A stretch of 64,000 nucleotides of DNA from Actinomycetota bacterium (GCA_034667405.1 JAXDJX010000016.1:8159-72158); one strand, 5' to 3'. Positions 1 to 50,514 are shown, numbered from the stretch's first letter. The notes: a model not told the origin generated them from the sequence alone. Numbers and translations are program-made.

Positions 1-792
1 CACGAACACCAGCCATCGCAGTTGCTGGCGTTCGTCGCCCGTAGAGCGCTTGTAGCGGCCGCGAACGGCGAAGACGGTGGCCAAACTGATGGCGAGCGTC
101 ACCACGGTGCCCAGTGCGATCATCGTCGGGGCGAGGACGGACATCGACGCGATCCCCAGCGGATTCATGTACAGAACGCCCTGGTCGACGTAGGTGTTGA
201 GTGGCCCCGGCGCGATGAGGGAACCGATCACGATGGCGCCGAGCGCCGCGAAGAGGGTGTACTCAACGATCCGCCATCTGTGGCTCGGCGGGCGTCCGTC
301 CGGATACAGAAGGAACAGCAGTGGGATGAGCGTTACGACGAGGAATGTGTACTCGCCAAGTGATGCCCACAGGCCCAAGAGGGGGACGGAGCCCGGGTCA
401 ACCTTTGCCCCCGTGGTCACGAGGACCTGTGGCAGCAGGGTCAGTGCCGCGGCTGTGCCGATCGCAGAGAAGATCCACCCCGACGTGTTCTTCGGCTGCC
501 GGGAGACGATCAGGCTTCCGGTCACGAGCCAGGTGAGGCTGATCGCGGTGATGATGACGAGGAACCCGATGGATACGGTCTGGCGGAACGGGTCATCCTC
601 GGAGGCCTGACGGTCTCGCAGGTCAGCAAGCGTCGCCGGACCGTCCCCCTCCGACGGGTCCCCGATGACCACGATCTGGCCCGGCTCCTGCCGGGGGTAC
701 ACAAAGGTTGCGACCAAAAGCGATGCCAGCAGGCCGCTCACCGCGATCACCAGGAGCAGCCTGGAGATGATCTTGGCGGCCCGCGGACTCAC
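1..792 (-). CDS. Membrane sensor histidine kinase paralogue, N-terminal membrane part only (runs off the window edge)
   Basis: Not in the ORF track; translated by hand from GTG at 792 (GTGA overlap with the stop of 789..2951) and open to position 1. MSPRAAKIISRLLL...SRQPKNTSGWIF...LLYPDGRPPSHRWR...NPLGI...YKRSTGDERQQLRWL shares motifs with the two neighbouring kinases. Confidence 0.8.
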   Translation of the reverse strand, partial: MSPRAAKIISRLLLVIAVSGLLASLLVATFVYPRQEPGQIVVIGDPSEGDGPATLADLRDRQASEDDPFRQTVSIGFLVIITAISLTWLVTGSLIVSRQPKNTSGWIFSAIGTAAALTLLPQVLVTTGAKVDPGSVPLLGLWASLGEYTFLVVTLIPLLFLLYPDGRPPSHRWRIVEYTLFAALGAIVIGSLIAPGPLNTYVDQGVLYMNPLGIASMSVLAPTMIALGTVVTLAISLATVFAVRGRYKRSTGDERQQLRWLVFV

Positions 793-2951
793 GCGAACGC
801 CCCGCTGGGTGCTTCCACGTCGACCGGGAGTCTGCCCGTCACCGTCGTTCCACCTCCGGCGCTGCTCTCGAGCGTGAGCGCTCCATCCAACGCGGCGATC
901 CGGTCCCGAACGATCTGGATGCCCATCCCTTCCGGCGTGACCTCGATATCGAACCCCGGACCCTCGTCGTGGACGCTGAACGTGAGGGTGTGGTCTGTCA
1001 CGTCCAGCCGCACGGCCGTCGGCGCGTTCCCTGCATGGCGGAGCACGTTCTGGATCGCCTGCAGGCAGCAGAAGTAGACGCACGCCTCGGTGTCCACGTC
1101 GAATCTCTGGGCGTTGAACGCCGGCGTCGCGTCGATCACGCCGTTGGCGCCCACCTTGCGGATGTGTGCGTCGAGCGCGGAGGCGACGCCCTTGTCGGCT
1201 AGGAGCGGGGGGAAGATGCCGCGCGCCAGATCGCGCAGGCCTTCCAGGGTGGCGTTGGCCTCTTCGCCCAGACGGTCCAACTGCGACAGCGCCACGTCGG
1301 GATTGTCCGCCACCAGGGTCGAGGTGTGGGTCACCTGCTGGCCTATAGCCAGCAGTTGACGTTGGGGGCCTTCACGGATGTCGCGCTCGAGCCCGCGACG
1401 CTGCGCGTCGCGGGCGGTCACCAATCGCTGCCTGGACTGCTCGAGCTGCCGGGAGCGCTCGTCGAGTTCGGCGAGTCGAAGCTCCAGCGAGGCCGCGAGA
1501 CGAACATTGTGCATCGCGAGTCCTGCTTGCGCGGCAAGGTCGATGAGCAGGGCATCTTCGGCGGGGGTGAGGCGTTCGCCCGGCGGTTTTGCGATCTCGA
1601 TGTCGCCGATGTGCTCGCCCTCATAGGTGACGTCGATGCGCCGATCGAAGGGGCCCTCGATGGCTTCCACCGGCCAGGAGGCGGATCGCGTGTCCGATCC
1701 TGGAAGCTTCACGCGGACACGGCTCCGTTCTGCCCCCACTCCGCTCGCCGCAGTTGCGGCCATCGTCGGCAGCACATCGCCGAGCGAGTGGGTGTCCGCC
1801 ATGCGCCGTGAGAACTCCGCCATCAGCTCGTAGGGCGTCGAACGCTTGCCGTACACCATCCGGTTGGCGAACCTCCGCACCCGCTCGCGCACGGGCTGGA
1901 ACGCCACGGCGATGATGGCGGTGGCGGCGATCGACAACGACGTGTTCCCCTGACGGCCCAACAGCTGACCGAGCCCGACTACGATCGCGATGTAGAGCAC
2001 GGTGATGAACGTCGCGAGCAGCCCGTAGACGAGTGCCCTGTTGATGATCGTGTCGATCTCGTAGAGCTTGTACCGCAGCACCGCGAAGCCGATCGCCACG
2101 GGCAGGAGCGCGAAGGTCAGGAGCGAGACGTTCTGCAGGATGGTGATGGCGAGGGGCTGTTGGGTTCCGGGAGGCCTCGTCGCCTCGGATACGAGGGACC
2201 ACGCGATCGTGACCGCGTAGAGAACGGCCATGATCGCTCCGGTGGTGACGAGCCACTTCATCTGGAGGCGCTCGGTGCCACGTGACCGGCGGAAGCGGCC
2301 GACTACGGCGATCGCGGCCGCGATGATCCCGAGTGGGATCACGAAGATCAAGACCATCAGCGGGTCCAGGACCGGCGCGAGAGCGCGGATGCCGAGCGGG
2401 TTGACGACATCGGGGAACTGACCACCCTCCAGCTTGCCCGGCGAGACCAAGATCACCAGGAAGACGGTGGCCGACCCGATGCCGATCGCCCAGGCGACCT
2501 TCCGCCACTTCGGCCCTGGAAGATGCCCGTCGGGGAACAACAGCAGGACGTAGACCCCCATCAACACGATCATCGGAACCCAACTCGCACCGTCGAACGC
2601 TGCCGCCACTCCGGCTCCTGGGAGTCTGCCCGGGAGCAGCACGAATCCGACGACTTCGTAGGCACCGACGACCTGCATCGAAGCGAGATACACACCGATG
2701 AGGACGAGCACCCTGCCCAACCAATTCTCGGGATGGCGTGACATCACGATGGCGCCCACCAAGGGGAACAGGAGGAACCCGACTCCGAGCACCAAGTTCG
2801 AAAAGGCTGAGGAGCCGTTCCAGCCAGCCTCGGTGGCGGTGTGCGAGGTACGGGCTTGTGCGACGAACCCGATGATGTTGGTCGCGATGCCCAGCACGAC
2901 GTAGGCTGCGAACGACCCCCACGCGAGCCGCGCCGCCCTCCGCTGGTCCAT
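789..2951 (-). CDS. Multi-TM sensor histidine kinase-like protein (GAF-like + HisKA_3 + HATPase); phospho-His replaced by Arg
   Basis: Many TM helices, then LERDIREGPQRQL (H-box position), QAIQNVLRHA, HDEGPGF, GMG and GGGTTV boxes; paralogue of 2951..5143. Confidence 0.88.
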   Translation of the reverse strand: MDQRRAARLAWGSFAAYVVLGIATNIIGFVAQARTSHTATEAGWNGSSAFSNLVLGVGFLLFPLVGAIVMSRHPENWLGRVLVLIGVYLASMQVVGAYEVVGFVLLPGRLPGAGVAAAFDGASWVPMIVLMGVYVLLLFPDGHLPGPKWRKVAWAIGIGSATVFLVILVSPGKLEGGQFPDVVNPLGIRALAPVLDPLMVLIFVIPLGIIAAAIAVVGRFRRSRGTERLQMKWLVTTGAIMAVLYAVTIAWSLVSEATRPPGTQQPLAITILQNVSLLTFALLPVAIGFAVLRYKLYEIDTIINRALVYGLLATFITVLYIAIVVGLGQLLGRQGNTSLSIAATAIIAVAFQPVRERVRRFANRMVYGKRSTPYELMAEFSRRMADTHSLGDVLPTMAATAASGVGAERSRVRVKLPGSDTRSASWPVEAIEGPFDRRIDVTYEGEHIGDIEIAKPPGERLTPAEDALLIDLAAQAGLAMHNVRLAASLELRLAELDERSRQLEQSRQRLVTARDAQRRGLERDIREGPQRQLLAIGQQVTHTSTLVADNPDVALSQLDRLGEEANATLEGLRDLARGIFPPLLADKGVASALDAHIRKVGANGVIDATPAFNAQRFDVDTEACVYFCCLQAIQNVLRHAGNAPTAVRLDVTDHTLTFSVHDEGPGFDIEVTPEGMGIQIVRDRIAALDGALTLESSAGGGTTVTGRLPVDVEAPSGAFA

Positions 2952-5143
2952 CAGGAGATCCCCGCGATCGTTCGTTCGCTCTCGAGTGGTACCCGGCCGC
3001 GCACCGTGGTTCCACGACCTTGCGACGATGTCACCGTCACACCGCCACCGAGCACGGAGAGGCGGTCTCGCATGTTGTTCAGGCCTGAGCCCCGTGGCGC
3101 CGTGGCTGCGTCGAATCCCTGGCCGTCGTCGGTCACCTCGAACGTGAGGTCTCCGTCGCGCTCACCGAGCGTGATGTCGACGGCGCCTGCGTTCGCGTAT
3201 TTCGCGATGTTCTGAAGGGCCTCCAAAGCACAGAAGTAGACGGCCGCCTCGAGTTCGATCGGATAGCGAGAGACGCCGTTCGCGTGGAGCCGTACCGTGA
3301 GATCCATCCGTTGGTACTGCGCGGCGAGCGCGGTCGCGAGCCCTTGCTCCTCGAGCAGCGGAGGATAGATGCCGAGGGCCAGGTTCGACAGGGTCTCGAG
3401 CGCATCGTCGACCTCACCACGAAGTTCGGCGAGCATGGCGCCCGCCTTCACCGGATCACGGGAGATCAGCGAACGAACCAGTCGGAGCTTCACGGCCAAT
3501 GCGACCAGATGTTGTTGCGCGCCGTCGTGGATGTTGCGCTCGAGCCGGCGGCGTTCTTCATCCTGGGCCGTGACGATCCGCTGTCGCGATCTCTGGAGTT
3601 CTGCCGACCGCTCGGTGAGTTCGTTGAGTCGAGCTTGGAGTTCAGCGGTGAGACGGGCGTTGGCAAGGACCAGACCGGCCTGGCCCGCGAGATCGTCCAG
3701 CAGCACTTCCTCGGCGTGGCGCAAGGGGTCTCCCTGCGCTTTCGTCACCGTCACGGCGCCCAGGAGCGACCCTTGTAGCAGGACGGGTACCGCGCGGTCG
3801 ACGCCCCGGATCTCGGGCAGGGATACGCCATCGCCGGGGAGTTCGAGCCCTTGACCGTCGTCTGCTCCAGGAGGCCACGACGCGGATAGGCGAAGCTCGT
3901 TCCCCACCCGGAGCCACACGTCCGCGCGCTCGGCGCCGGTTCCCTCGGCGATCACTCGCGCCGTCCGGGGCAGCACGTCCTCGGCGGCATAGGTCGTGCC
4001 GACACGCCCGGCGAACTCGCTCAGCACCTGGTACGGCGTGGCACGTTCTCCGTAAACGAGACCGTTCGCAACGCGCGTCATCCGCTCCCGCACGGGTTGG
4101 AACCCAACGGCAACGACGGCGGTGGCTACGATCGCCAGCCCGATGTTCGCCTGATCGGTCTGCCCCAGGAGTGCTCCGAACCCGATGACGATCCCGACGT
4201 AGACCGCGGTGATGAACGCCGCAAGTGAGCCGAACAGGACGGTCTTCGAGATCACGATATCGATGTCGTAGAGCCGGTATTTGAGCACGGCGAGCCCAAC
4301 CGACAAGGGGATCGCATAGATCCCGAGCACCATGACGGCTTCGGCGAGCACGTCGACGAGACCCGAGGACTCCGTCCCGCTGACGGCGGCGCTTCCTCCC
4401 CCGATCACCAGCCAGGTATACGTCCCGAAGTACATGAGGAATGCGGCGGCGATGAGCGATCCGGAGACGGCGAGCCATTTCATCTGCGCACGTTCGTCAC
4501 CGCGCGAACGACGGAACCGCACGATCACGCTACTCGCGCCGATCACCAGCAAAAGAGGAACCGACACGAGCGCGATGCTCTGGATCGCGAACATCCCGGG
4601 GATCCCGAAAGGATTGTGGGCGTCGAGGTACGTGGTTTGCTGCTTCGACAAGATCCCGGCCACCGTGGCGATGCACACGCCGACGACACTCGTGATGAAC
4701 GGCGCTCGCCACCTGGCCGAGATGAGCTTCCCGTCGGGGAACAGAGCGCAGACCGCAGCGAGGGCCGAGAGCGCAGGCAGCCACACCCAATCCTCAGCGG
4801 CGGCCGCGAGTCGCGCCGGTGTGGCGCGATCTCCCGTCGTCAGGAACGCCCAGTTCGCATAGCCCTCCGCGATCGCCTGGAGCCCCGCGAAGATCGAGGC
4901 GAACATCAGGATCCACCCGATCGGGTTCTGGGGACGCTTCGTCGCCAGCGTTGCCCCCACGACCGCCAAGATCAGCGCGAGTGGGATCGCGACACCCCGC
5001 GGGCCGAACGAGGCGGATGGGCGAGTAGTCGCCTTGAGTTCGAAAACGAGGCCGGCGACCGCGAGTGCGATCGCCACCCCGCAGACCACCCACGGCGATC
5101 GTGGGGGGCGTTCCGGCGATAGTGCTGCTGCGGAGTCCTCCAT
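2951..5143 (-). CDS. Multi-TM sensor histidine kinase (GAF-like + HisKA_3 + HATPase_c)
   Basis: LERNIHDGAQQ H-box, EALQNIAKYA N-box, DDGQGF, GSGL, GRGTTV; start placed at ATG 5143 (MEDSAAAL); TGATG coupling to the next gene. Confidence 0.92.
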   Translation of the reverse strand: MEDSAAALSPERPPRSPWVVCGVAIALAVAGLVFELKATTRPSASFGPRGVAIPLALILAVVGATLATKRPQNPIGWILMFASIFAGLQAIAEGYANWAFLTTGDRATPARLAAAAEDWVWLPALSALAAVCALFPDGKLISARWRAPFITSVVGVCIATVAGILSKQQTTYLDAHNPFGIPGMFAIQSIALVSVPLLLVIGASSVIVRFRRSRGDERAQMKWLAVSGSLIAAAFLMYFGTYTWLVIGGGSAAVSGTESSGLVDVLAEAVMVLGIYAIPLSVGLAVLKYRLYDIDIVISKTVLFGSLAAFITAVYVGIVIGFGALLGQTDQANIGLAIVATAVVAVGFQPVRERMTRVANGLVYGERATPYQVLSEFAGRVGTTYAAEDVLPRTARVIAEGTGAERADVWLRVGNELRLSASWPPGADDGQGLELPGDGVSLPEIRGVDRAVPVLLQGSLLGAVTVTKAQGDPLRHAEEVLLDDLAGQAGLVLANARLTAELQARLNELTERSAELQRSRQRIVTAQDEERRRLERNIHDGAQQHLVALAVKLRLVRSLISRDPVKAGAMLAELRGEVDDALETLSNLALGIYPPLLEEQGLATALAAQYQRMDLTVRLHANGVSRYPIELEAAVYFCALEALQNIAKYANAGAVDITLGERDGDLTFEVTDDGQGFDAATAPRGSGLNNMRDRLSVLGGGVTVTSSQGRGTTVRGRVPLESERTIAGIS

Positions 5144-5300
5144 ATGACGCGGATGGTCGCACTTCAAGGCCGCCGGCGGAAAGGGGGAGGGCGCCACCTT
5201 CCCTCGGGTGCAGGCATCCCTGAGAACCGTGGTGCCGGCCGGGTTCGTTCTGGTCGGCGACGAGCGTAGCGTCCGGGGCGAGGACAAGGAGGAACCCACG

Positions 5301-5708
5301 ATGACGACCATCCTCACCGGAACCGATACCACCGCCGCGGCCGATCTTGCCGTGGATGACGCAGCCAGGCTCGCCCACGACCGCGGCGCAGAGCTCTTGG
5401 TCCTCTACGTGGAGCGAGAGGGAGACGAACGGAGAGCCGTTGACCCGGCGCGCGCTCCCGATCCCGGTTCGCATCTACAGAAACTGGCCGCCCGCTATCC
5501 CGGACTCAGCGTCAAGACCCGGGTCGAACACGGCGACCCGGCGGAGCGACTCGTCGAGGTAGCGGCGGAGGTTCGCGCCGAGGCGATCGTGGTCGGCAAC
5601 CGAGGCGCGCAAGGATCACGCTGGCGTGTCAAGGACGCCGTCCCCACGTTGGTCCTTCGGCACGCGCCGTGCAGCGTGTTCATCGTTGACACACGGCGCG
5701 CGCAGTGA
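5301..5708 (+). CDS. Universal stress protein (single USP domain)
   Basis: ILTGTD...GDPAERLVEVA...IVVGNRG...VPTLVLRHAPCSVFIV; AGGAGG RBS upstream of ATG 5301. Confidence 0.9.
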   Translation: MTTILTGTDTTAAADLAVDDAARLAHDRGAELLVLYVEREGDERRAVDPARAPDPGSHLQKLAARYPGLSVKTRVEHGDPAERLVEVAAEVRAEAIVVGNRGAQGSRWRVKDAVPTLVLRHAPCSVFIVDTRRAQ

Positions 5709-5731
5709 GGCCGGTCCCGCAGGAGGCGGAC

Positions 5732-6400
5732 TCAGGCGTGGTCGGTCTCGCGCAGGAACGCGAGCACCGCCATGACCCGGCGGTGAACGTCGGGCTCTTC
5801 GGTCAACCCGAGCTTGTGGAACAGCGAGTTGATGTGTTTCTCCACCGCCCGATCGGTGAGGAACAGCGATGCGGCGATCGCCGCATTGTTCCGGCCTTGC
5901 GCCATATGGGACAGCACTTCTCGCTCTCGGTCCGTCAGAGAGCGGAGCGGGCTCGACGCCATCCGGTCCTTCGCCGCGACCAGCGCCTCGACGACCTTGG
6001 GATCGAGAACGCTCCCGCCCCGGCTGACTTCCTCCAGTGCCCGCACCAGCTCGTCGATGTCGGCAACGCGCTCCTTCAAGAGGTACCCCAGACCCGCAGC
6101 GCCATCCTTCAGCAGGTCGTACGCATACTCCTCCTCGACGAACTGCGACAGCACCACGACGCCGATCTCGGGATGTTCCGCACGGATGCGCTTGGCCGCG
6201 TCGATCCCCTCGTTCGTGCCGGTCGGTGGCATGCGGATATCGGTGAGCACCGCATCGGGACGATGCTCGGTCACCGCCGCCAGCAACTCGTCGCGGTCCG
6301 TGACCATGGCAACCAGGTCGAGTTCGTCGACGCTTTCGAGGAGCGCCGCTGTTCCCTCGCGGACCAGGTAGTTATCCTCGGCGAACACCACGCGGATCAC
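5732..6400 (-). CDS. NarL/LuxR-family response regulator (REC + LuxR HTH)
   Basis: AEDN, LTDIRMP (phospho-Asp), YLLKE, LTDREREVLSHMAQGRNNAAIA...VEKHINSLFHKLGL; GTG 6400 lies 6 nt downstream of TACCAT. Confidence 0.95.
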   Translation of the reverse strand: MIRVVFAEDNYLVREGTAALLESVDELDLVAMVTDRDELLAAVTEHRPDAVLTDIRMPPTGTNEGIDAAKRIRAEHPEIGVVVLSQFVEEEYAYDLLKDGAAGLGYLLKERVADIDELVRALEEVSRGGSVLDPKVVEALVAAKDRMASSPLRSLTDREREVLSHMAQGRNNAAIAASLFLTDRAVEKHINSLFHKLGLTEEPDVHRRVMAVLAFLRETDHA

Positions 6401-6438
6401 GCGCGGATGGTACACGGGCGCAGGAGGCGGCTGGCAGC

Positions 6439-7719
6439 GTGAGCGGCATCAGGGTGGTCCTCGGTGAAGACAACGTCTTGGTTCGGGAGGGAGTCCGTGC
6501 CTTGCTCGATTCCTACGACGACATCGAGGTGGTCGGCGTGGCCGCCGACGCACCCGCCCTCATGGAGACCGCAGAGGAACATCTTCCCGATGTCGTCGTC
6601 ACGGATATCAAGATGCCCCCGTCGTTCCAACTCGAGGGGATCGATTGCGCGCACGCGATCCGCTCGATGCATCCGGATACGGGTGTGGTTGTGCTCTCGG
6701 CCCATGACGACGAGGCGTATGCGCTCGCGCTCCTGGGCGGCGGCCACAGCGGCCTGGCCTACCTGCTGAAAGACCGGATCGCCCAGGGCGACGAGCTTGC
6801 TCGCGCCATCCGTGAAGTGCACGCCGGGGGAAGTGCGGTCGATCCCCTCATCGCCGAACGTCTCTCCGGCCGCACGGATGCCGGCGAGGACGAGCGGCAG
6901 GTCCTCGACATGATGGCGAGGGGCCTCGGCTACGCGGAGATGGCAGCGGCCCTCGGCACCACCCAGGAAGCTGTGGACAGGCGGGTGACCGAACTCTTCG
7001 GTCGGATGGCCGACGGCACCGGCTCGGGCAACACTCGCGCGGTCGACGAGATGAAGAAGCTCCATGCCGCCGTCGTGACGCGCTCTACCGAGGCGACGAA
7101 CCTAAAGGAGTACATCCCGTCGCAGGTCGCCGATGCGATCGCCGGCGGACTGATGACGCAGCAGGAACTCGACGTCACGGTGCTGTTCAGCGACATCCGG
7201 GGCTTCTCCACCATCGCCGAACGTCTCTCCGCCCGCGAGATCGCGGACGTGGTGGGCAGGCATCTGGGTGCGATGGCCGAGATCGTCGCCCAACACGGTG
7301 GGACCATCGACAAGTTCCAAGGGGACGCCGTCATGGCGATCTTCGGCGCGCCTGTGGCCCTCACCGATCACGCCGAGCGCGCGCTGAGGTGCGCCATCGA
7401 CATGCAACGCCGGCAGACGGAACTCAACGCAGATGGCTGGGGTGCAGCGGTTCCTGAGTTGGTGGTAGGCATCGGTCTCAATACGGGCCCCGTCATCGCG
7501 GGAGCGGTGGGCGGCGGCGGCCGGCTGGAATACACGGTGATCGGCGATGCCGTGAACGTCGCGCAGCGCTTGCAGTCGGAGGCGGCGGGCGGCGAGATCG
7601 TCGCGGCCGCGAGCACGGTGCAGGCCGCCCCCGGCGTCATGTGTGAGCGGATCGGACCGCGGATCGTGAAGGGCCGCGACGAACCGGTCGAGGTGTTCCG
7701 CGTCGTTCTGGGTTCCTGA
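6439..7719 (+). CDS. Response regulator (REC + LuxR-like HTH) fused to a class III adenylate/guanylate cyclase
   Basis: REC: GEDN, VTDIKMP, YLLKD. HTH-like: ERQVLDMMARGLGYAEMAAAL. Cyclase: VLFSDIRGFS, DKFQGDAVMA, GIGLNTG, EYTVIGDAVNVAQRLQ. Confidence 0.92.
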   Translation: MSGIRVVLGEDNVLVREGVRALLDSYDDIEVVGVAADAPALMETAEEHLPDVVVTDIKMPPSFQLEGIDCAHAIRSMHPDTGVVVLSAHDDEAYALALLGGGHSGLAYLLKDRIAQGDELARAIREVHAGGSAVDPLIAERLSGRTDAGEDERQVLDMMARGLGYAEMAAALGTTQEAVDRRVTELFGRMADGTGSGNTRAVDEMKKLHAAVVTRSTEATNLKEYIPSQVADAIAGGLMTQQELDVTVLFSDIRGFSTIAERLSAREIADVVGRHLGAMAEIVAQHGGTIDKFQGDAVMAIFGAPVALTDHAERALRCAIDMQRRQTELNADGWGAAVPELVVGIGLNTGPVIAGAVGGGGRLEYTVIGDAVNVAQRLQSEAAGGEIVAAASTVQAAPGVMCERIGPRIVKGRDEPVEVFRVVLGS

Positions 7720-7740
7720 ACCGATCGGGAGGGAGGATTC

Positions 7741-8508
7741 GTGCGCAACGGGAAGGGGAGCGGGCGGCTCATGGCGTTCCGCATCGTCGCGGTGATCGGG
7801 GCCGTGCTGCACGCCGCGCCGATCGTCTTCCTCGGGGCGTCATACACCGCCGGAGAGATGAGGATCCACGTCGTGCACAACGCGGCCGGGCTGGCCATGT
7901 TCACGGCGGTGATCGCGCTGGGATGGATCCTGGCCGCGATCTCGCCCGACCGGATGGTCGCGCCGTTCCAAGCTGCCACGCTCGCCGTCGTCGCGGTGGT
8001 CGTCGCGTCGGTGATCTCTGCGGACGTCCAGGGCGGACTCCTCAGCGGGGTCGTTGGGCTCGTCTTGGTCGTCCTTCACCCGGATCGTCCGGTGCTGGCT
8101 CGGATCGGCAGGACTGGACCTCTGCCGCTGATCCTCGCCGCCCTCGCCGTGGTCCCCGCGGTAGGGTTCGCACTGGAGAGCGCCTCCTTGCAACGGAACG
8201 GGATGCCGATGGATCCGCACGTGGAGATGCACCACTGGACGGGCATGGCCGCCTTCGCGATGACCCTGGTCGTGGTGGCGGTCGTCGCCGGCTTGGGAGG
8301 CCCGAACCGACGTATCGTTGCCATGGTCGGCGGCCTCTCCGCGATGTTCTTCGGTGTCATGGCACTCGTCTACGCCGGGTACCCGGGAGCGCCGGCTAGA
8401 GCCTGGGCGATCGCGTGTATCGCCTGGGGCATGCTGCTGGCTGGCGACGGTTACCGCATGGCCCGCGAACCGGGGAACGAGCCCATCGTCATGGAAGGTC
8501 CAGCATGA
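7741..8508 (+). CDS. Hypothetical multi-pass membrane protein with His clusters
   Basis: About 7-8 hydrophobic segments; GGAGG upstream; ATGA overlap with the next ORF; alternative start at ATG 7771. Confidence 0.7.
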   Translation: MRNGKGSGRLMAFRIVAVIGAVLHAAPIVFLGASYTAGEMRIHVVHNAAGLAMFTAVIALGWILAAISPDRMVAPFQAATLAVVAVVVASVISADVQGGLLSGVVGLVLVVLHPDRPVLARIGRTGPLPLILAALAVVPAVGFALESASLQRNGMPMDPHVEMHHWTGMAAFAMTLVVVAVVAGLGGPNRRIVAMVGGLSAMFFGVMALVYAGYPGAPARAWAIACIAWGMLLAGDGYRMAREPGNEPIVMEGPA

Positions 8509-8696
8509 GCGTCGACGTCCACCGCCCCAAGACACTCACCCGCCGAGTAGAGCGGGCCATCGTCGGGTTCACCATGGCGATCGTCGCCTTGATCTTGGAG
8601 CGGGTGGTCATGAAGACCGTCAGGAAGGAAGGGGGCACCATGAAGGACGCTCCCGGCAAAGTGGTCACCAGCAAGGGCGGCGAGGTAGACGCGTAG
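8505..8696 (+). CDS. Small single-TM hypothetical protein (63 aa)
   Basis: MSVDVHRPKTLTRRVERAIVGFTMAIVALILERVV...; ATGA coupling with the upstream gene; GGAAGG upstream. Confidence 0.65.
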   Translation: MSVDVHRPKTLTRRVERAIVGFTMAIVALILERVVMKTVRKEGGTMKDAPGKVVTSKGGEVDA

Positions 8697-8710
8697 GGCC
8701 TCGGCCGGGA

Positions 8711-10807
8711 TCAGTTGCGCTTGCGGACCAGGTCGAGCAGCAGACCCAGCGTGAAGATGGCACCCACCGCGCCGAGCGTGATCGGCACCCAGGCCGCCAC
8801 CCTGCTCGATGTCGCCACGATCGCGGTGCCCAGGAGCGCCGCGGCGGCCACCACGCCCAGCGCCAATCGCCGTCCGGCCGCGTGCACCGTTCGTTCCAGG
8901 GAGACGGCTCGGAAGTTCACTTCGAGTTTCTGGCCCGGGCGGGCGCCGATGAGCCGTTCCACCGCCTCCACGACCTGGAAGATCCGAACCTTCGCCTTCT
9001 GCGTCTTGTAGAAGAGCGTTTGCGGATCGAAGACCGAGGTGGTCTGCCGGAGCACGGTTCGCATGAGGAATCTGCCCGCCACATCGAACGGGTCGAGGTC
9101 GGGGTCGAGTTGGGCGGCCGCCAGCTGCATCTGTGCCATCGCTTTCGCGGTGAGTGTGAGTGAGGCAGGCAGCGGCACCTCGTAACGGAGGCTGATCTCC
9201 GTCATCTCTTGGAGCACTGGTCCCAGTTGGATGTCTTTCAGCGACGCCGTGCGGTATTTCGCCATGAGGTCGCCGATCTCCGACTGGAACCCTTGGATGT
9301 CCAGGTCGGACTTGCCCATCCCCCCGGCGAGCATCAGGGAGACATCGGTGAGGAAGTCGACGTCCTGCTGCCAGAAGGCGAGCAGCAGGAGCATGAGCTG
9401 CTCGCGCATCTCGGGACCGACCTCGCCCACCATCCCCAGGTCCAAGAGGTAGAGCGTTTCCTCCTCCGGCTGCCACATCAGGTTCCCCGGGTGTGGATCA
9501 GCATGCACGAACCCGTCGACGAGGATCTGCTTGTAGAAGGACTCCAGCAGCTGGCGCGCCGTGTCTTCACGGACCGGTCCCTCGGGGCACTCGGCGATGG
9601 GGACCCCGCCAACGTCGTGCATGACCAATAGCCGCGACGTCGAGTAATCGGGGTGGAACACGGGGACCGCCAGACGGGAGTAGGGCGCGATGACATCGCG
9701 CATCCGGTCCATGTTCTGTGCCTCGATGCGGAAGTCGAGTTCGCGATGGAGCGACTCCGAGAGGTAGTTGAACACCGCCTCCAGGTCGATGACTTGTTTC
9801 AGTGCCTGCCGGTCCCCCGCCTTCTCGGCGAACAGCTGCAAGAGCGCCAGGTCTTGTTCGATGAGTTCGCGAGCGTCGGGACGTTGAACCTTGATCACGA
9901 CTTTTTCCGCGTTCGCGAGAACGGCACGGTGAACCTCCGCGATGGTTCCCGCTGCGAGCGGTTGGGGTTCGATGTGGTCGAAGACGTCTTCCCAGGGGAC
10001 GCCCAACTCCTCCTCCATCACCTTGACCACCTGCTCTTCCGACAGCGGAGGCACGTGGTCTTGCAAGAGCGCCAGCTCGTCGATGAACTCCGGTGGCAGA
10101 AGGTCGGGCCGCGTCGAAAGGATCTGTCCCAGCTTCGCGAACGTCGGTCCCAGTTCTTCCAGCGCCGCGCGCATCCGCTTCGCCTGTCGCTTCCGACCGA
10201 CGGCTCCTTCCTCATCAGGCCTGCCGAACAACTCTTTCAGCCCATGCTTGGCGAACACGGCCGCGATCTTCGTGCCTCGGGCCATCAAACGTGGTTCGGT
10301 GGGCTCCTCGACCCCACCGGCGCGAAGCGCCGTGGCGCGCGTCGTGGCGCGGCTCGGTTGCGCGCTGACCTCCCCGTCGGCCGCCGTGTTGACGATGATG
10401 ACGTGACAGCGAGCGTTGTGGCTGATCCGGTTCGGGACGTTCCCGAGGAGGAACTCCTTGCGTCCGCTCATCCCGGCGTTGCCGACCACCAGCACATCGA
10501 TCCCCGCGTCTTCGGAGGCTTGAACGATGGCCATGGCCGGGTCGTCGCTGACGACCACGCGAGAGGTACCGCGTTCGCCCGCCAGTGCGGTCACATGGTG
10601 TTGAAGGTCGTCGGCCGCCGCGGCCGCCTGGGTTGCCTCGGCTGCCCCGAATTCAGTCGTCGCACGGTTCGTCGGGAAGACGACCTGTACCACGTGAAGT
10701 TCGGCATCGAAGCGCTCCGCGAACGCGGCCGCCCACAGGACCGCGCGCTCGGCGGTCTGGGAACGGTCCGTTCCCACCATGACCCGGGTGACCGGCGTAT
10801 CCATCAT
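8711..10807 (-). CDS. USP domain fused to an ABC1/AarF/UbiB atypical kinase with C-terminal TM helices
   Basis: N-terminal VMVGTD...LVVGNAGMSG...LLGNVPNRISHNARCHVIIV (USP); then GPTFAKLGQ, VIKVQRP, ELDF, HADPHPGN, LDLG (ABC1). The longer ORF call to 11749 crosses a tRNA and is spurious. Confidence 0.9.
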   Translation of the reverse strand: MMDTPVTRVMVGTDRSQTAERAVLWAAAFAERFDAELHVVQVVFPTNRATTEFGAAEATQAAAAADDLQHHVTALAGERGTSRVVVSDDPAMAIVQASEDAGIDVLVVGNAGMSGRKEFLLGNVPNRISHNARCHVIIVNTAADGEVSAQPSRATTRATALRAGGVEEPTEPRLMARGTKIAAVFAKHGLKELFGRPDEEGAVGRKRQAKRMRAALEELGPTFAKLGQILSTRPDLLPPEFIDELALLQDHVPPLSEEQVVKVMEEELGVPWEDVFDHIEPQPLAAGTIAEVHRAVLANAEKVVIKVQRPDARELIEQDLALLQLFAEKAGDRQALKQVIDLEAVFNYLSESLHRELDFRIEAQNMDRMRDVIAPYSRLAVPVFHPDYSTSRLLVMHDVGGVPIAECPEGPVREDTARQLLESFYKQILVDGFVHADPHPGNLMWQPEEETLYLLDLGMVGEVGPEMREQLMLLLLAFWQQDVDFLTDVSLMLAGGMGKSDLDIQGFQSEIGDLMAKYRTASLKDIQLGPVLQEMTEISLRYEVPLPASLTLTAKAMAQMQLAAAQLDPDLDPFDVAGRFLMRTVLRQTTSVFDPQTLFYKTQKAKVRIFQVVEAVERLIGARPGQKLEVNFRAVSLERTVHAAGRRLALGVVAAAALLGTAIVATSSRVAAWVPITLGAVGAIFTLGLLLDLVRKRN

Positions 10808-10879
10808 CGGCGCATCATCGCGCACAAGTGCCCTCATCGACAGGTGTATCTGCCGGCCCGGTAGACTCCCCGATCGGCC

Positions 10880-10951
10880 GCCGGAGTAGCTCAGTGGTAG
10901 AGCAACCGCCTCGTAAGTGGTAGGTCCCGGGTTCAAATCCCGGCTCCGGCT
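10880..10951 (+). tRNA. tRNA-Thr (anticodon CGT)
   Basis: GCCGGAG/CTCCGGC acceptor stem, D arm GCTCAGTGGTAGAGC, anticodon arm ACCGC-CTCGTAA-GTGGT, T loop GGTTCAAATCC; no encoded CCA; TAGACT -10-like element upstream. Confidence 0.95.
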
Positions 10952-11011
10952 CTGGAGGGCAACGCCCGCGGCAAGTTGCCGCAGGGACCGTTCCGTTGCG
11001 AGAATCCGCCC

Positions 11012-48804: not shown

Positions 48805-50514
48805 ATGGCGCTCTCCGACTCCGCCCGCGCACTCCGCGAGGTCGCCCATAGCAAGGGGATGCGCCGGGTTCTGTTCGCGTTCCTGTTCTTCAATGTGGCG
48901 GAATGGGCGACGTGGGTGGCGATGCTGGTGTTCGCCTACCAACGCGGCGGCGTAACCACCGCCGGCATCGTGGCGGTCGTGCAGCTGATCCCGGGCATCT
49001 TCGTCGCCCCTCTGGGCTCGGTGGTTGGGGACCGGATCCCGAGGAACCGAGCGCTCGCGATCGCATATTCCGCCATGGCGATCGCCCTGTTCGCTGCCGG
49101 TATCGTGCTCGTCGTCCACGCCCCGGCCCCCATCGCCTATCTCATGGGGGCAGTGGCCAATGCCGCGCTGACGATGATCCGGCCCGTGCACAATTCGATC
49201 CTTCCCGAGCTTGCGGATCGACCCGAGACCCTTACGGCAGCGAACGCGCTTTCCAGCACTGCTGAAGGGTTGTCGACGTTCGTCGGACCGGTGGTGACCG
49301 GGGTGCTCCTGCAAACAGAAGGAGCCGGTGCCGTCTTCCTGGTGATGGGCGGCTGTCTGATCATCTCGAGCCTGCTTGCCGCAGGCGTCCCGTTGCGCTC
49401 GGGTGTACGGAGCCTGGTGCACGCCGGATCAGTGGTCGGAGATGCTGCCGCGGGGTTTCGTGAACTTCGGAGCACAGCGGGAGCGGGGGCGATCATGGGT
49501 TTGTTCTGCGCCCAGTTCGTGGTCATGGGGCTCATGGATGTGCTGGCCGTCGTGTTGGCATTCCAGGTGTTCAACATGTCGCCGTCGGGACCCGGCCTGC
49601 TGACCGGAGCACTCGGGCTCGGAGCCTTGATCGGCTCGGGCGCGACGATCATCCTCATCGGCCGCAAGCGTCTCTCGACCTCTATCGGCGTCGGCGCGTT
49701 GGCGACCGGCCTCCCGCTCGCCTTGATCACCGTGGTGCCCGCCTACGCTCAGGCGATCATCCTGCTCATGGCCTCGGGCATGGGCCGGGCGTTCGTCGAT
49801 GTAGGCGGGCGCACACTCCTTCAACGCACGGTGAAGGACGAGATCCTGGCACGGGTGTTCGGGCTCCAGGAGTCGGCGGCGATGCTCGGGTTGACGATCG
49901 GCTCGGCCCTTGCGCCGCTGCTGGTTTTCTGGCTTGGTGGACGGGGCGCGTTCCTGGCGGCGGGGGTGTTCCTCCCGGCCATGGCCATCTTCGCGTGGCG
50001 GCAGCTGGCCCTGGCCGATCGTCTGGCCACGGCACCCGATCCCGCACGCGTGTCGCTCCTGCGCTCAACGTCGATCTTCCATCCACTCCCACAGCCGGTC
50101 ATCGAACGACTCTCCCGCAACCTCATCGCGATCGAGGCGTCGCCCGGTGAGGTCATCATCCGGCAGGGTGATCCCGGCGATCGGTTCTACCTGGTGAACG
50201 ACGGGACCGTCGCGGTGAGCATCGACGGTGGACACGTGGCCGACCTGAGCCCGGGGCACTTCTTCGGAGAGATCGCCCTCTTGCGGGACGCCCCGCGCAA
50301 CGCGACGGTGACGGCCTCCGGCCCGGTGCATCTGCTGGCGCTGGAGCGTGTGGAGTTCCTGGATGCGGTGACCGGCTCCCATGCCGCCTCCGAAGCCGCC
50401 GACCGGACGGTGGAACTTCGCTTGGGGCAGACGTCGGCGGACGACGAAGATCCGGCGGCCTTCACAGAACCGCAACATCTTCCCTCGAACCCGTCCGAAC
50501 CCCCGGGCCCGTAG
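48805..50514 (+). CDS. MFS transporter with a C-terminal cyclic-nucleotide-binding domain
   Basis: About 12 TMs with GSVVGDRIPR MFS motif; IIRQGDPGDRFY, FFGEIALL...PRNATV cNMP phosphate-binding cassette. Confidence 0.92.
   Translation: MALSDSARALREVAHSKGMRRVLFAFLFFNVAEWATWVAMLVFAYQRGGVTTAGIVAVVQLIPGIFVAPLGSVVGDRIPRNRALAIAYSAMAIALFAAGIVLVVHAPAPIAYLMGAVANAALTMIRPVHNSILPELADRPETLTAANALSSTAEGLSTFVGPVVTGVLLQTEGAGAVFLVMGGCLIISSLLAAGVPLRSGVRSLVHAGSVVGDAAAGFRELRSTAGAGAIMGLFCAQFVVMGLMDVLAVVLAFQVFNMSPSGPGLLTGALGLGALIGSGATIILIGRKRLSTSIGVGALATGLPLALITVVPAYAQAIILLMASGMGRAFVDVGGRTLLQRTVKDEILARVFGLQESAAMLGLTIGSALAPLLVFWLGGRGAFLAAGVFLPAMAIFAWRQLALADRLATAPDPARVSLLRSTSIFHPLPQPVIERLSRNLIAIEASPGEVIIRQGDPGDRFYLVNDGTVAVSIDGGHVADLSPGHFFGEIALLRDAPRNATVTASGPVHLLALERVEFLDAVTGSHAASEAADRTVELRLGQTSADDEDPAAFTEPQHLPSNPSEPPGP

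What the first reader, a model, noticed from the sequence alone, without database searches (positions are those of the whole stretch)
1..10807. Candidate self-contained phosphorelay -> cAMP -> USP-kinase signalling circuit
Seen: within 11 kb lie three paralogous membrane kinases, a NarL regulator, a REC-HTH-adenylate cyclase fusion, a stand-alone USP and a USP-ABC1 kinase fusion. Established: mycobacterial USP Rv1636 binds cAMP. Both USPs here carry motifs I recall from that subfamily (GTD at the N-terminus, VVGNxG; the fused one also LLGxVPxxxS). Inference: kinase-driven phosphorylation turns on the cyclase, cAMP is read by the USP domain that gates a membrane-anchored ABC1/UbiB kinase, and the free USP acts as buffer or feedback. 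I know of no described system with this combination.
Basis: partly seen in the sequence, partly recalled or inferred. Interest (0 to 1): 0.85.

Follow-up and report, generated by a model that had tools for sequence, protein, structure and literature searches.

The report
Kinase cluster with cAMP-making response regulator
An uncultured soil actinobacterium carries a conserved sensing cluster in which membrane kinases probably switch on both a gene regulator and a cAMP-producing enzyme, while the neighbouring stress-protein genes look like co-regulated targets, with no evidence yet that they read cAMP.

Summary
Four corrections apply.
- The middle "kinase" has Arg where the phospho-accepting His should be.
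- The HTH of the cyclase fusion is degenerate: Pfam GerE is seen in 4 of 34 orthologs, all below threshold.
- A single-domain receiver gene (REC1) lies just left of the window.
- The stand-alone USP lacks the last Gly-Ser/Thr of the ATP motif.

The cyclase keeps all its catalytic residues and the receiver keeps its phospho-acceptor set.

The conserved core is kinases + NarL regulator + REC1 + REC-cyclase. It persists in distant families (45-49% identity) where USP and USP-ABC1 are missing from 13 of 13 loci.

Within the order, USP-ABC1 stays beside tRNA-Thr and a metalloprotease-like gene even in two genomes that lack the cyclase ortholog.

An 18-bp palindrome sits upstream of the USP, USP-ABC1 and REC1 genes. 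In 80 public loci it accounts for 81 of 83 sites. It is absent upstream of this window's own USP-ABC1.

Most likely this is a branched two-component system with a cAMP output and a small USP-containing regulon. The cAMP-to-USP step is untested.

The parts
1..798 (-). HK3, N-terminal membrane sensor part of a HisKA_3 histidine kinase. The gene runs off the window's left edge.
   Evidence: Open frame. The full gene is G000:C16:6758-8956, 40% identical to HK1 over 93% of its length, with His at the H-box (ERNIHDGAQ).
789..2951 (-). HK2, a His-less paralog (pseudo-histidine kinase). It has about 8-10 hydrophobic segments, a degenerate DHp domain and an intact-looking HATPase_c domain.
   Evidence: Pfam HATPase_c E 1.7e-10; HisKA_3 17.7 bits, below the cut-off of 24. 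Arg at the phospho-His column. The same Arg type recurs in 9 of 68 family members examined. Hydropathy.
2951..5143 (-). HK1, a membrane sensor histidine kinase: multi-TM module, GAF-like region, HisKA_3, HATPase_c.
   Evidence: Pfam. His present. About 10 hydrophobic segments in the first 350 residues. The start at 5143 is my choice (MEDSAAAL...), not tested.
5204..5245 (.). Candidate operator in the divergent HK1/USP promoter region. It has a palindrome GGGTGC-AG-GCATCC (5206-5219) and a second, similar box (5227-5245).
   Evidence: PWM score 21.0, the best hit in the 2.8-Mb genome. The site holds the same position in 13 of 16 orthologous USP upstream regions. The same motif lies upstream of USP-ABC1 and REC1 in relatives.
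5301..5708 (+). Stand-alone universal stress protein, 135 aa.
   Evidence: PF00582 71.9 bits at G000:C16:13462-13845. The best solved relative is 5AHW, E 2.2e-07. The nucleotide motif reads G-N-R-G-x9-D-A here and [D/E/G/Q/R]-[S/T] in 14 of 15 orthologs, with D-A again in L029.
5732..6415 (-). NarL/LuxR-type response regulator (REC + GerE HTH). The probable true start is GTG at 6400.
   Evidence: Pfam. It sits divergently next to the REC-cyclase in 20 of 20 relatives and 74 of 80 public loci. The start is inferred from a conserved TACCAT + 6 nt + start codon arrangement.
6439..7719 (+). Response regulator with a class III adenylate cyclase output: REC, a degenerate LuxR-like four-helix region, a long helix, then the cyclase.
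   Evidence: Pfam. PDB matches 2W01 (E 7e-37), 6FHT and 3R5G for the cyclase, and VraR, DevR and NarL chains over residues 4-190. Invariant catalytic and phospho-acceptor residues. AlphaFold2 model with mean pLDDT 77.
7741..8508 (+). Integral membrane protein of unknown function (weak DUF998 hit), immediately downstream of the cyclase.
   Evidence: Pfam DUF998 E 1.7e-4, 21.7 bits against a cut-off of 30. About 7 hydrophobic segments. Found in 7 of 20 relatives' loci.
8711..10807 (-). USP-ABC1 (UbiB-family atypical kinase) fusion with two C-terminal membrane segments.
   Evidence: Pfam Usp E 4.5e-25, ABC1 E 1e-61. NCBIfam UbiB 326 bits, below the 487.55 cut-off. PDB matches 5YJZ, 7CY2 and COQ8A/B. 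The start at 10807 fits a conserved CATGAT/GATGAT + 6 nt + ATG arrangement. No operator lies upstream in this window.
10880..10952 (+). tRNA-Thr (CGT), the right-hand boundary of the cluster and a constant neighbour of USP-ABC1.
   Evidence: ARAGORN. The same tRNA lies next to USP-ABC1 in G012 and G035, which lack the cyclase ortholog.

Best explanation
This is a branched, multi-sensor two-component system of an uncultured soil Actinomycetota lineage.

Proposed mechanism:
1. Two canonical membrane kinases (HK1, HK3) and a His-less paralog (HK2) sense an unknown membrane or envelope signal.
2. They pass phosphate to three receiver proteins.
   - The NarL-type regulator, once phosphorylated, binds an 18-bp palindrome (GGTGC-N2-GCACC core). 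It then activates the stand-alone USP gene, the single-domain receiver REC1 and, in many relatives, USP-ABC1.
   - The REC-(HTH-like)-cyclase paralog dimerises on phosphorylation and makes cAMP, which feeds the cell's large general cAMP network.
   - REC1 acts as an induced phosphate sink.
3. The USP and USP-ABC1 proteins are stress effectors under this transcriptional control, not dedicated cAMP receptors.

Shown here: gene content, intact catalytic and phospho-acceptor residues, conservation of the core, and the position and specificity of the operator.

Inferred: who phosphorylates whom, which protein binds the operator, the activation mechanism, and the role of REC1.
For: Core conservation:
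- NarL sits divergently next to the REC-cyclase in 20 of 20 relatives. Same-family kinases are present in 19 of 20.
- In 80 public loci, NarL is present in 74, kinases in 73 and USP in 68.
- In 13 distant loci (45-49% identity), kinases are present in 9, a NarL paralog in 6 and REC1 in 7.
- REC1 and the REC-cyclase co-occur tightly across 41 genomes: 29 have both, 1 has the cyclase only (a 64%-complete genome), 3 have REC1 only and 8 have neither.
- These three are the only kinases of this family in the genome.

Competence of the proteins:
- D11, D56, S87, K111, D252, D296, N373 and R377 are invariant in 34 of 34 orthologs. The window protein has K292 and T366.
- The cyclase domain matches active cyclases 3R5G, 6FHT and 1WC0.

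Operator:
- A PWM built from 13 USP-upstream sites hits upstream of USP-ABC1 in 5 loci and upstream of REC1 in 2, out of about 629 kb scanned. There is one other site, upstream of a distant REC-cyclase.
- It lies upstream of REC1 in 21 of 30 loci at score 15 or more, centred 39-83 bp before the start codon. No further site scoring 13 or more was found in those 98 kb, apart from the palindrome's own opposite-strand reading in 2 loci.
- In 80 public loci, 81 of 83 sites scoring 17 or more lie 20-160 bp upstream of USP (44), USP-ABC1 (24) or REC1 (13).
- The whole 2.8-Mb genome holds only one unrelated site scoring 18 or more.
- NarL is the only protein in the cluster with a full-scoring DNA-binding domain.

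Precedent: NarL-family DosR/DevR controls USP genes in mycobacteria (passages and reference list of bioRxiv 10.1101/2022.06.10.495724).
Against: - Nothing here is experimental.
- The NarL gene is not in one operon with the kinases. A convergent USP gene lies between them, so the pairing rests on neighbourhood only.
- The protein that binds the palindrome is unknown. The HTH-like region of the cyclase protein, or an unlinked factor, could do it.
- This window's own USP-ABC1 has no operator (best match 9 of 15). Only 24 of 59 public loci have one. USP-ABC1 may therefore be outside the regulon in this genome.
- 7 of 30 REC1 loci and 25 of 68 USP loci show no site at the thresholds used.
- The PWM was trained on USP-upstream sites, some from the same species as the public loci. 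The USP counts are therefore partly circular; the USP-ABC1 and REC1 counts are not.
- The adenine-specifying Lys is Gln in 11 and Ala in 1 of the 34 orthologs.
- Both USPs do score best, per domain, against the cAMP-binding mycobacterial USPs. A cAMP role is therefore not excluded.
Confidence: 0.55

Rival explanations
1. The kinases activate the REC-cyclase. The resulting cAMP is bound by the USP domain of USP-ABC1 and gates that membrane kinase. The free USP buffers cAMP or feeds back.
For: - The REC-cyclase looks active and phosphorylatable.
- Per domain, the best solved matches of both USPs are the cAMP-binding Rv1636 and MSMEG_3811. The fused USP scores 41.3 bits against 1TQ8 and 36.7 against 5AHW, versus 32.4 against 1WJG and 28.0 against Rv2623 domain 2. 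The free USP scores best against 5AHW, E 2.2e-07.
- Of the cAMP contacts listed for 5AHW in PMC8126637, the fused USP keeps G10, T11, D12, S14, A20, V113, G114, N115, V129, P130 and T146, and has Thr for S16. This is my reading of the alignment.
- The C-terminal Thr is invariant in 16 of 16 orthologs of each USP.
- The REC-cyclase and USP-ABC1 co-occur in 27 of 41 genomes and lie in one neighbourhood in at least 23 of those 27.
- A third USP of this genome lies 184 bp upstream of another cyclase.
- The Asp/Glu that replaces the last motif Gly in most free-USP orthologs could disfavour a triphosphate. This is inference.
Against: - USP and USP-ABC1 were found in 0 of 13 distant REC-cyclase loci.
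- Five genomes have USP-ABC1 without the cyclase ortholog and three have the reverse.
- USP-ABC1 keeps its tRNA-Thr/metalloprotease neighbours without the cluster, and in G028 and G039 it lies far from the cluster.
- General synteny is high here: holB is adjacent in 21 of 30 loci.
- G10 and G113/114 serve ATP binding as well (PMC8126637 passage). No residue known to me tells cAMP from ATP.
- The free USP has Ala at S16 and lacks the last Gly.
- The second USP-cyclase pair is not conserved in the relatives that have both genes.
- About 17 cyclase genes and about 11 cNMP-binding genes make a private cAMP channel unlikely for a diffusible messenger.
Confidence: 0.17
2. Only kinases + NarL + REC1 + REC-cyclase + the embedded USP form a functional unit. 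In this genome USP-ABC1 is an unrelated backbone gene that happens to lie beside the cluster.
For: - There is no operator upstream of the window's USP-ABC1.
- USP-ABC1, tRNA-Thr and the metalloprotease-like gene stay together in G012 and G035, which have no REC-cyclase ortholog.
- The flanking housekeeping genes are equally syntenic.
- The Usp+ABC1 family is very large: 7923 proteins at E <= 1e-20 among the 8000 scored, and all of the top 120 carry Usp+ABC1.
Against: The operator lies 20-160 bp upstream of USP-ABC1 in 24 of 59 public loci and in 5 of 16 relatives. Given a background of about one site per 2.8 Mb, that is far beyond chance. The gene therefore belongs to the regulon in many relatives.
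Confidence: 0.2
3. The REC-HTH-cyclase itself is the protein that binds the palindrome. It would combine DNA binding with local cAMP synthesis, and NarL would have other targets.
For: - It is 46% identical to NarL over REC + HTH.
- NarL-family chains align over residues 4-190.
- Four helices are modelled at residues 136-192.
- One site (score 17.1) lies upstream of a distant REC-cyclase.
Against: - GerE is detected in only 4 of 34 orthologs, all below threshold.
- The HTH region is among the least conserved parts, 66% identity in near and 32% in distant orthologs, against 86/60% for REC and 74/45% for the cyclase (only the helical linker at 196-240 is lower, 46/25%). It also models with low confidence.
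- Distant orthologs have no basic residues in the helix that reads DNA in NarL-type proteins. This is my reading of the alignment; which helix contacts DNA is recalled.
Confidence: 0.08

Closest known systems
DosR/DevR-DosS/DosT system of Mycobacterium tuberculosis and its USP-rich regulon
   Same: - A NarL-family regulator works with more than one HisKA_3 kinase carrying GAF-type domains.
- USP genes are under its control. [quoted passage not shown]
- The DevR structure 3C3W is among the PDB matches.
- A palindromic operator is shared by several targets. That the Dos box is a palindrome is recalled.
   Different: - The kinases here have a large multi-TM sensor module with no Pfam family, and one paralog lacks the His.
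- The system has two extra receivers, REC1 and a cyclase-bearing paralog of the regulator.
- No NCBIfam equivalog threshold is reached. The best hits are MadR and MctR at 120-126 bits against cut-offs of 300.
- The signal is unknown.
Receiver-regulated class III adenylate cyclases such as cyanobacterial CyaC (recalled, not seen in any call)
   Same: A receiver domain sits in the same polypeptide as a class III cyclase, so phosphorylation can set cAMP synthesis.
   Different: - Here the protein is a plain response regulator derived from a NarL-type paralog, with a leftover LuxR-like helical region between REC and cyclase.
- It is not a hybrid kinase.
- I found no paper describing this architecture. 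The 2012 census of actinobacterial LuxR proteins lists cyclase+LuxR but no REC+LuxR+cyclase (PMC3466318, passages read).
Rv1636 / MSMEG_3811, cAMP-binding universal stress proteins (PDB 1TQ8, 5AHW)
   Same: - They are the best per-domain solved matches of both USPs.
- They share GTD, VVGNxG, LLGxVP and the C-terminal Thr.
   Different: - The matches are only moderate, E 1e-7 to 1e-9.
- The free USP lacks the final Gly of the motif and has Ala at the Ser16 position. The fused USP has G-N instead of G-S.
- No binding data exist.
- No tree including Rv1636 could be built here.
UbiB/ABC1/COQ8 atypical kinases, including M. tuberculosis Rv3197 (MABP-1, PDB 5YJZ); Usp-ABC1 fusion noted in Nitrosomonas europaea (PMC1262709)
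   Same: - The ABC1 domain scores E 1e-61.
- The KxGQ-like FAKLGQ, the Ala-rich loop, VIKVQRP, HADPHPGN and DLG are visible in the alignments. The motif names are recalled.
- The protein has C-terminal membrane segments.
- The N-terminal Usp fusion is already recorded.
   Different: - It scores below the UbiB equivalog cut-off, 326 against 487.55 bits.
- It occurs in a phylum that, as I recall, uses menaquinone, so a ubiquinone role is doubtful.
- The substrate is unknown.
Mycobacterial cyclase-ATPase-LuxR proteins (Rv0386 type; recalled, and listed as CHD+LuxR in PMC3466318)
   Same: A class III cyclase and a LuxR-type HTH sit in one protein. The Gln seen at the Lys position in 11 of 34 orthologs recalls the Gln-Asn substrate pair of Rv0386 (recalled).
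   Different: The domain order is reversed, there is no receiver domain, and these proteins are about 1000 aa with an ATPase module.

Membership tests
Class III adenylate cyclase (subclass IIIb; subclass definition recalled) | Two metal-binding Asp residues | tested here: met
   D252 (FSDIRGF) and D296 (QGDAVM) are invariant in 34 of 34 and aligned to 2W01, 6FHT and 3R5G.
Class III adenylate cyclase (subclass IIIb; subclass definition recalled) | Adenine-specifying Lys, with Thr (IIIb) or Asp partner | tested here: met
   The window protein has K292 and T366. Across the orthologs, K appears in 22, Q in 11 and A in 1; T in 29 and S in 5, all out of 34.
Class III adenylate cyclase (subclass IIIb; subclass definition recalled) | Transition-state Asn and Arg | tested here: met
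   N373 and R377 are invariant in 34 of 34.
Class III adenylate cyclase (subclass IIIb; subclass definition recalled) | Catalytic homodimer and measured cAMP synthesis | not testable with these tools
Two-component response regulator (receiver domain) | Acidic pair, phospho-accepting Asp, Ser/Thr and Lys | tested here: met
   REC-cyclase: E/D10, D11, D56, S87 and K111 in 34 of 34. NarL and REC1: Pfam Response_reg E 3.2e-16 and E 1.6e-23; their individual residues were not tabulated.
NarL/LuxR (GerE) DNA-binding domain in the REC-cyclase | Match to the GerE model at Pfam's threshold | tested here: not met
   GerE is found in 4 of 34 orthologs, best E 2.4e-4, and not in the window protein. Sigma70_r4_2 is found in 16 of 34, below threshold. 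Homology to NarL-family chains over residues 4-190 remains.
HisKA_3 sensor histidine kinase | Phospho-accepting His in the H-box | tested here: met
   HK1 and HK3 have His (ERNIHDGAQ).
HisKA_3 sensor histidine kinase | Phospho-accepting His in the H-box, for HK2 (window 789-2951) | tested here: not met
   HK2 has Arg at that column. Of 68 family members examined, 57 have H, 9 R, 1 E and 1 N.
ATP-binding (UspFG / MJ0577-type) universal stress protein | Motif G-x2-G-x9-G-(S/T), as quoted in bioRxiv 10.1101/2022.06.10.495724 | tested here: not met
   Free USP: G-N-R-G-x9-D-A in the window. In its orthologs the last pair reads [D/E/G/Q/R]-[S/T/A]; Gly appears in 1 of 16. Fused USP: G-N-A-G-x9-G-N in the window, and the final G-N is invariant in 16 of 16. 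The last position is therefore Asn, not Ser/Thr.
cAMP-binding USP of the Rv1636 / MSMEG_3811 type | Gly10 and Gly113/114, whose mutation lowers cAMP binding (PMC11107214 passage) | tested here: met
   Both glycines are present in both USPs and in all orthologs. The same residues also serve ATP binding, so this does not discriminate.
cAMP-binding USP of the Rv1636 / MSMEG_3811 type | Side-chain contacts Ser16 and Thr146 (PMC8126637 passage) | tested here: inconclusive
   The Thr146 equivalent is present in both USPs, 16 of 16 each. At Ser16, the fused USP has Thr and the free USP has Ala.
cAMP-binding USP of the Rv1636 / MSMEG_3811 type | Measured preference for cAMP over ATP; placement in one clade with Rv1636 | not testable with these tools
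   No assay is possible. Rv1636 was not available as a stored protein, so no tree was built. The 2015 paper that defines the family is not held.
UbiB/ABC1 atypical kinase family | ABC1 domain at Pfam's threshold, with the catalytic loop and the Lys | tested here: met
   ABC1 scores 208.7 bits against a cut-off of 22.9. HADPHPGN, VIKVQRP and DLG are aligned to 5YJZ, 7CY2 and COQ8 chains.
UbiB proper (ubiquinone biosynthesis) | NCBIfam equivalog score | tested here: not met
   TIGR01982 scores 326.4 bits against a cut-off of 487.55. NF003404 scores 259.5 against 667.

The most novel reading that the evidence does not exclude
In this order of soil Actinomycetota, USP domains are cAMP (or AMP) sensors.
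- The free USP would bind the cyclase's product instead of ATP, because an acidic residue replaces the last glycine of its phosphate-binding motif.
- The Rv1636-like USP domain fused to a UbiB-family kinase would turn that membrane kinase on or off in response to cAMP made by the phosphorylated REC-cyclase.
- The same two-component system also induces both genes through the palindromic operator. It would thus control its effectors at two levels, a feed-forward loop.
Probability: 0.15. Interest if true: 0.75.

Novelty: new variant of a known kind. Interest (0 to 1): 0.45.

Why it matters
- Response regulators that make cAMP are little studied. This one is a clean case: it is conserved, it sits next to its transcription-factor paralog and its likely kinases, and it is widespread in uncultured soil Actinomycetota (254 relatives confirmed by tblastn among 327 matched stretches in species-representative genomes; 51 of 401 sampled genomes of the phylum).
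- The cluster offers a compact model for how one sensor array splits its signal between gene regulation, a second messenger and a phosphate sink. It also bears on what His-less kinase paralogs do.
- The predicted operator gives an immediately testable regulon.
- If the USP domain of USP-ABC1 did read cAMP, it would supply a ligand and a regulatory logic for a UbiB-family kinase. That family's biochemical function is still debated.

Tried and rejected
- **Second USP-cyclase pair.** This genome has TauE-USP-HAMP-cyclase at G000:C19. It looked like independent support for a USP-cAMP link. It is not conserved. Of the 4 relatives with the cyclase ortholog, G017 and G018 carry the USP homolog elsewhere, G004 has the two genes on different contigs, and G009 has no USP match.
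- **Regulon search in the own genome.** Besides the USP site, only one site scores 18 or more. It lies inside a GFO_IDH_MocA reading frame. No further regulon member was found.
- **Synteny as proof of coupling.** I rejected it as sufficient evidence. holB and the metalloprotease-like gene are equally constant neighbours.
- **USP tree including Rv1636.** Not built, because the protein was not available as a stored sequence. Per-domain PDB scores were used as a weak proxy.
- **Banerjee et al. 2015 (JBC).** This paper defines cAMP binding by Rv1636. It is not held. What I say about contacts comes from passages of PMC11107214 and PMC8126637. The figures showing those contacts are in supplements that I could not see.
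- **Expression.** No RNA holder was listed for window 5100-10900. No reads were laid.
- **Complex prediction.** Not used. A USP-USP or cyclase dimer would probably pass by likeness to solved dimers and would not discriminate.
- **Fold search.** Not run on the model.
- **The search of earlier findings.** It was closed, so no earlier findings were used.
- **Literature.** Searches for a REC-LuxR-cyclase or for this cluster and for Usp-ABC1 gave only the 2005 note on the Usp-ABC1 architecture.
- **Unpublished genomes.** The 41-genome tallies include G029 and G037, both counted under 'USP-ABC1 only'. The 401-genome tally includes G153 and G181, both counted as having a match. No DNA was fetched from these four.

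Full report
**What is in the window.** The DNA is about 67% G+C, so long spurious frames abound. Pfam, NCBIfam and PDB comparisons single out the real genes.

| Gene | Window position | Note |
|---|---|---|
| HK3 | 1-798 (-) | Cut by the window edge |
| HK2 | 789-2951 (-) | His-less paralog |
| HK1 | 2951-5143 (-) | Canonical kinase |
| Free USP | 5301-5708 (+) | 135 aa |
| NarL-type regulator | 5732-6415 (-) | REC + GerE HTH |
| REC-(HTH-like)-cyclase | 6439-7719 (+) | 426 aa |
| Membrane protein | 7741-8508 (+) | Weak DUF998 hit |
| USP-ABC1 | 8711-10807 (-) | Two C-terminal hydrophobic segments |
| tRNA-Thr(CGT) | 10880-10952 (+) | Right-hand boundary |

The window is G000:C16:8159-72158 of a 2.8-Mb, 32-contig genome. 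Related contigs are labelled as uncultured Actinomycetota MAGs, and the DNA holders listed are soil metagenomes.

**Corrections to the inventory.**
- HK3 is complete in the genome, at C16:6758-8956. These three are the only members of this kinase family in the genome.
- HK2 has Arg where HK1 and HK3 have the phospho-accepting His. This Arg type is a recurrent paralog line: of 68 family members examined in the fetched loci, 57 have H, 9 R, 1 E and 1 N.
- A single-domain receiver, REC1 (130 aa, Response_reg E 1.6e-23), lies 46 bp beyond the HK3 stop, just outside the window.
- The kinases' N-terminal module has about 8-10 hydrophobic segments and no Pfam family. As a lead only, its structural neighbours in the ESM Atlas include a Chloroflexota cluster in which a similar module is fused directly to a class III cyclase.

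**The cyclase protein.**
- Its cyclase domain aligns with solved cyclases 2W01, 6FHT and 3R5G at E 1e-32 to 1e-37.
- In an alignment of 34 orthologs, the two metal Asp residues, the Asn and the Arg are invariant. The window protein has Lys and Thr at the substrate positions.
- The receiver keeps D11, D56, S87 and K111 in 34 of 34.
- Residues 4-190 are 46% identical to the neighbouring NarL regulator. They align with NarL-family structures VraR, DevR and NarL, so the protein arose from a NarL-type paralog.
- The HTH is degenerate. GerE is detected in 4 of 34 orthologs, always below threshold. This region is among the least conserved parts of the protein (only the helical linker at 196-240 is lower).
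- The AlphaFold2 model has mean pLDDT 77. It shows four helices of low confidence at 136-192, then a long helix at 199-223 leading into a confident cyclase domain.
- I read this region as a helical coupler that passes receiver dimerisation on to the cyclase. This is inference.

**How far the neighbourhood is conserved.**
- In 20 relatives from the same order, NarL is divergent next to the cyclase in 20 of 20. Same-family kinases are present in 19 of 20, at one to five per locus. The free USP is present in 15 of 20 and USP-ABC1 in 15 of 20.
- In 80 public species-representative loci the figures are NarL 74, kinases 73, USP 68, USP-ABC1 59 and REC1 25. The REC1 figure is limited by the 8-kb flanks.
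- Across 41 genomes, the REC-cyclase and USP-ABC1 orthologs are both present in 27. The cyclase alone is present in 3, USP-ABC1 alone in 5, and neither in 6.
- REC1 tracks the cyclase more tightly: 29 both, 1 cyclase only, 3 REC1 only, 8 neither.
- The full-length REC-HTH-cyclase also occurs in other families of the phylum at 45-49% identity, in 51 of 401 genomes sampled.
- In 13 such distant loci, kinases of the family are present in 9, a NarL paralog in 6 and REC1 in 7. No USP or USP-ABC1 was found there by tblastn.
- The old core is therefore kinases + NarL + REC1 + REC-cyclase. The USP genes were added within one order.

**Why adjacency of USP-ABC1 is weak evidence.**
- The whole stretch is syntenic in this order. 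holB is next to REC1 in 21 of 30 loci. The metalloprotease-like gene right of the tRNA is present in 10 of 20 loci.
- In G012 and G035, which lack the cyclase ortholog, USP-ABC1 still sits beside tRNA-Thr and that gene.
- In G028 and G039, USP-ABC1 lies elsewhere while the cluster persists.

**A shared operator.** Aligning upstream regions revealed a palindrome, GGGTGCTGGCACCC, with a second similar box about 22 bp downstream. It holds a fixed position upstream of the free USP, in the divergent HK1/USP region.

I built a PWM from 13 such sites and scanned with it.
- In the 2.8-Mb genome, the USP site (score 21.0) is the best hit. Only one other site scores 18 or more, and it lies inside an oxidoreductase frame.
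- In about 629 kb of window plus 33 loci, all sites scoring 16 or more outside the training set lie upstream of USP-ABC1 (5 loci) or REC1 (2 loci). The one exception lies upstream of a distant REC-cyclase.
- In 30 REC1 loci, the single hit lies 39-83 bp before the start codon in 21. It scores 20 or more in 14 of them. The consensus there is AGTGGTGC-TG-GCACCACT.
- In the 80 public loci (1.16 Mb), 81 of 83 sites scoring 17 or more lie 20-160 bp upstream of USP (44), USP-ABC1 (24) or REC1 (13).

The window's own USP-ABC1 has no such site. The USP counts are partly circular, because the PWM was trained on them; the other two are not.

The position of the site, overlapping where a -35 element would be, and its dimer-type symmetry suit an activator of the NarL type. 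NarL is the only full-scoring DNA-binding protein in the cluster. This assignment is inference.

Conserved -10-like hexamers lie 6 nt before the start codons of NarL and USP-ABC1. They suggest leaderless transcripts and fix the USP-ABC1 start at 10807 (inference).

**The USP question.**
- Both USPs score best, per domain, against the cAMP-binding mycobacterial proteins. The margin over ATP binders is small.
- They share many of the residues listed as cAMP contacts in 5AHW (PMC8126637), including the C-terminal Thr.
- The two glycines whose mutation abolishes cAMP binding (PMC11107214) also affect ATP binding.
- The free USP ends its motif with D-A, and with [D/E]-S in most orthologs. The fused USP ends with an invariant G-N.
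- Sequence alone cannot decide the ligand. The genome also has about 17 cyclase genes and about 11 cNMP-binding genes, so cAMP signalling here is a network, not a private line.
- A second USP-cyclase adjacency in this genome is not conserved.

**Verdict.**
- The cAMP-to-USP-kinase step remains a hypothesis, to which I give about 0.15-0.2.
- The better-supported reading is a branched two-component system with a cAMP-producing regulator and a small operator-defined regulon containing the USP genes. This resembles DosR-type control of USPs.
- The Usp-ABC1 fusion is a known and very common architecture.
- I found no description of the REC-LuxR-like-cyclase regulator or of this cluster.
- I rate it a new variant of a known kind, of moderate interest.

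Noticed in passing
window 789-2951 (-): HK2 has Arg in place of the phospho-accepting His but keeps a HATPase_c domain. The same His-to-Arg type recurs as a conserved paralog in relatives and in two distant loci (9 of 68 family members). It suggests a pseudo-kinase partner or modulator.
   Followed up: partly
G000:C16:6320-6712 (+), left of the window (L131:1320-1709): A single-domain receiver gene (REC1) flanks the kinase array. It is 74-93% identical across 32 of 41 genomes and is preceded by a near-perfect 18-bp palindrome.
   Followed up: yes
window 10880-10952 (+): tRNA-Thr(CGT) lies directly upstream of USP-ABC1. The pair stays together in relatives, including two that lack the cyclase cluster.
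   Followed up: partly
L113:3928-7328 (G000:C19:331927-335327): TauE-family exporter, a USP and a membrane HAMP-cyclase lie in a row on one strand, with the USP ending 184 bp before the cyclase. The arrangement is not conserved in relatives.
   Followed up: yes
window 6400-6439: The NarL and REC-cyclase genes start only about 24-39 bp apart on opposite strands. A conserved GGATGGTACAC block holds a -10-like TACCAT for NarL, so the two promoters must overlap and NarL is probably leaderless.
   Followed up: partly
window 789-5143, N-terminal 350-400 residues of HK1 and HK2: The multi-TM sensor module has no Pfam family. ESM Atlas structural neighbours include stand-alone 400-aa proteins and a Chloroflexota cluster in which a similar module is fused to a class III cyclase (TM-score 0.73, predicted models only).
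   Followed up: no
whole genome G000: Signalling density is high for 2.8 Mb. There are 19 cyclase-domain matches (about 17 genes, several in frames of 1000-1450 aa) and 12 cNMP-binding matches. One of the latter lies in this window at about 50137-50367.
   Followed up: no
G028:C1:224791-226855: The USP part and the ABC1 part of the USP-ABC1 homolog match as two separate adjacent stretches. This could be a split gene or a frameshift. It was not examined.
   Followed up: no
L073:6802 and L093:6853: Two strong operator sites (scores 23.8 and 20.3) were not assigned to a USP, USP-ABC1 or REC1 start by my script. Their context was not inspected.
   Followed up: no
L112 (contig JBHGAT010000428.1): A 1.8-kb contig with a 73%-identical REC-cyclase is filed under Candidatus Velamenicoccus archaeovorus, and another contig (L090) under Solirubrobacterales. 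All other titles say Actinomycetota or Actinomycetes. The first looks like a binning error.
   Followed up: no
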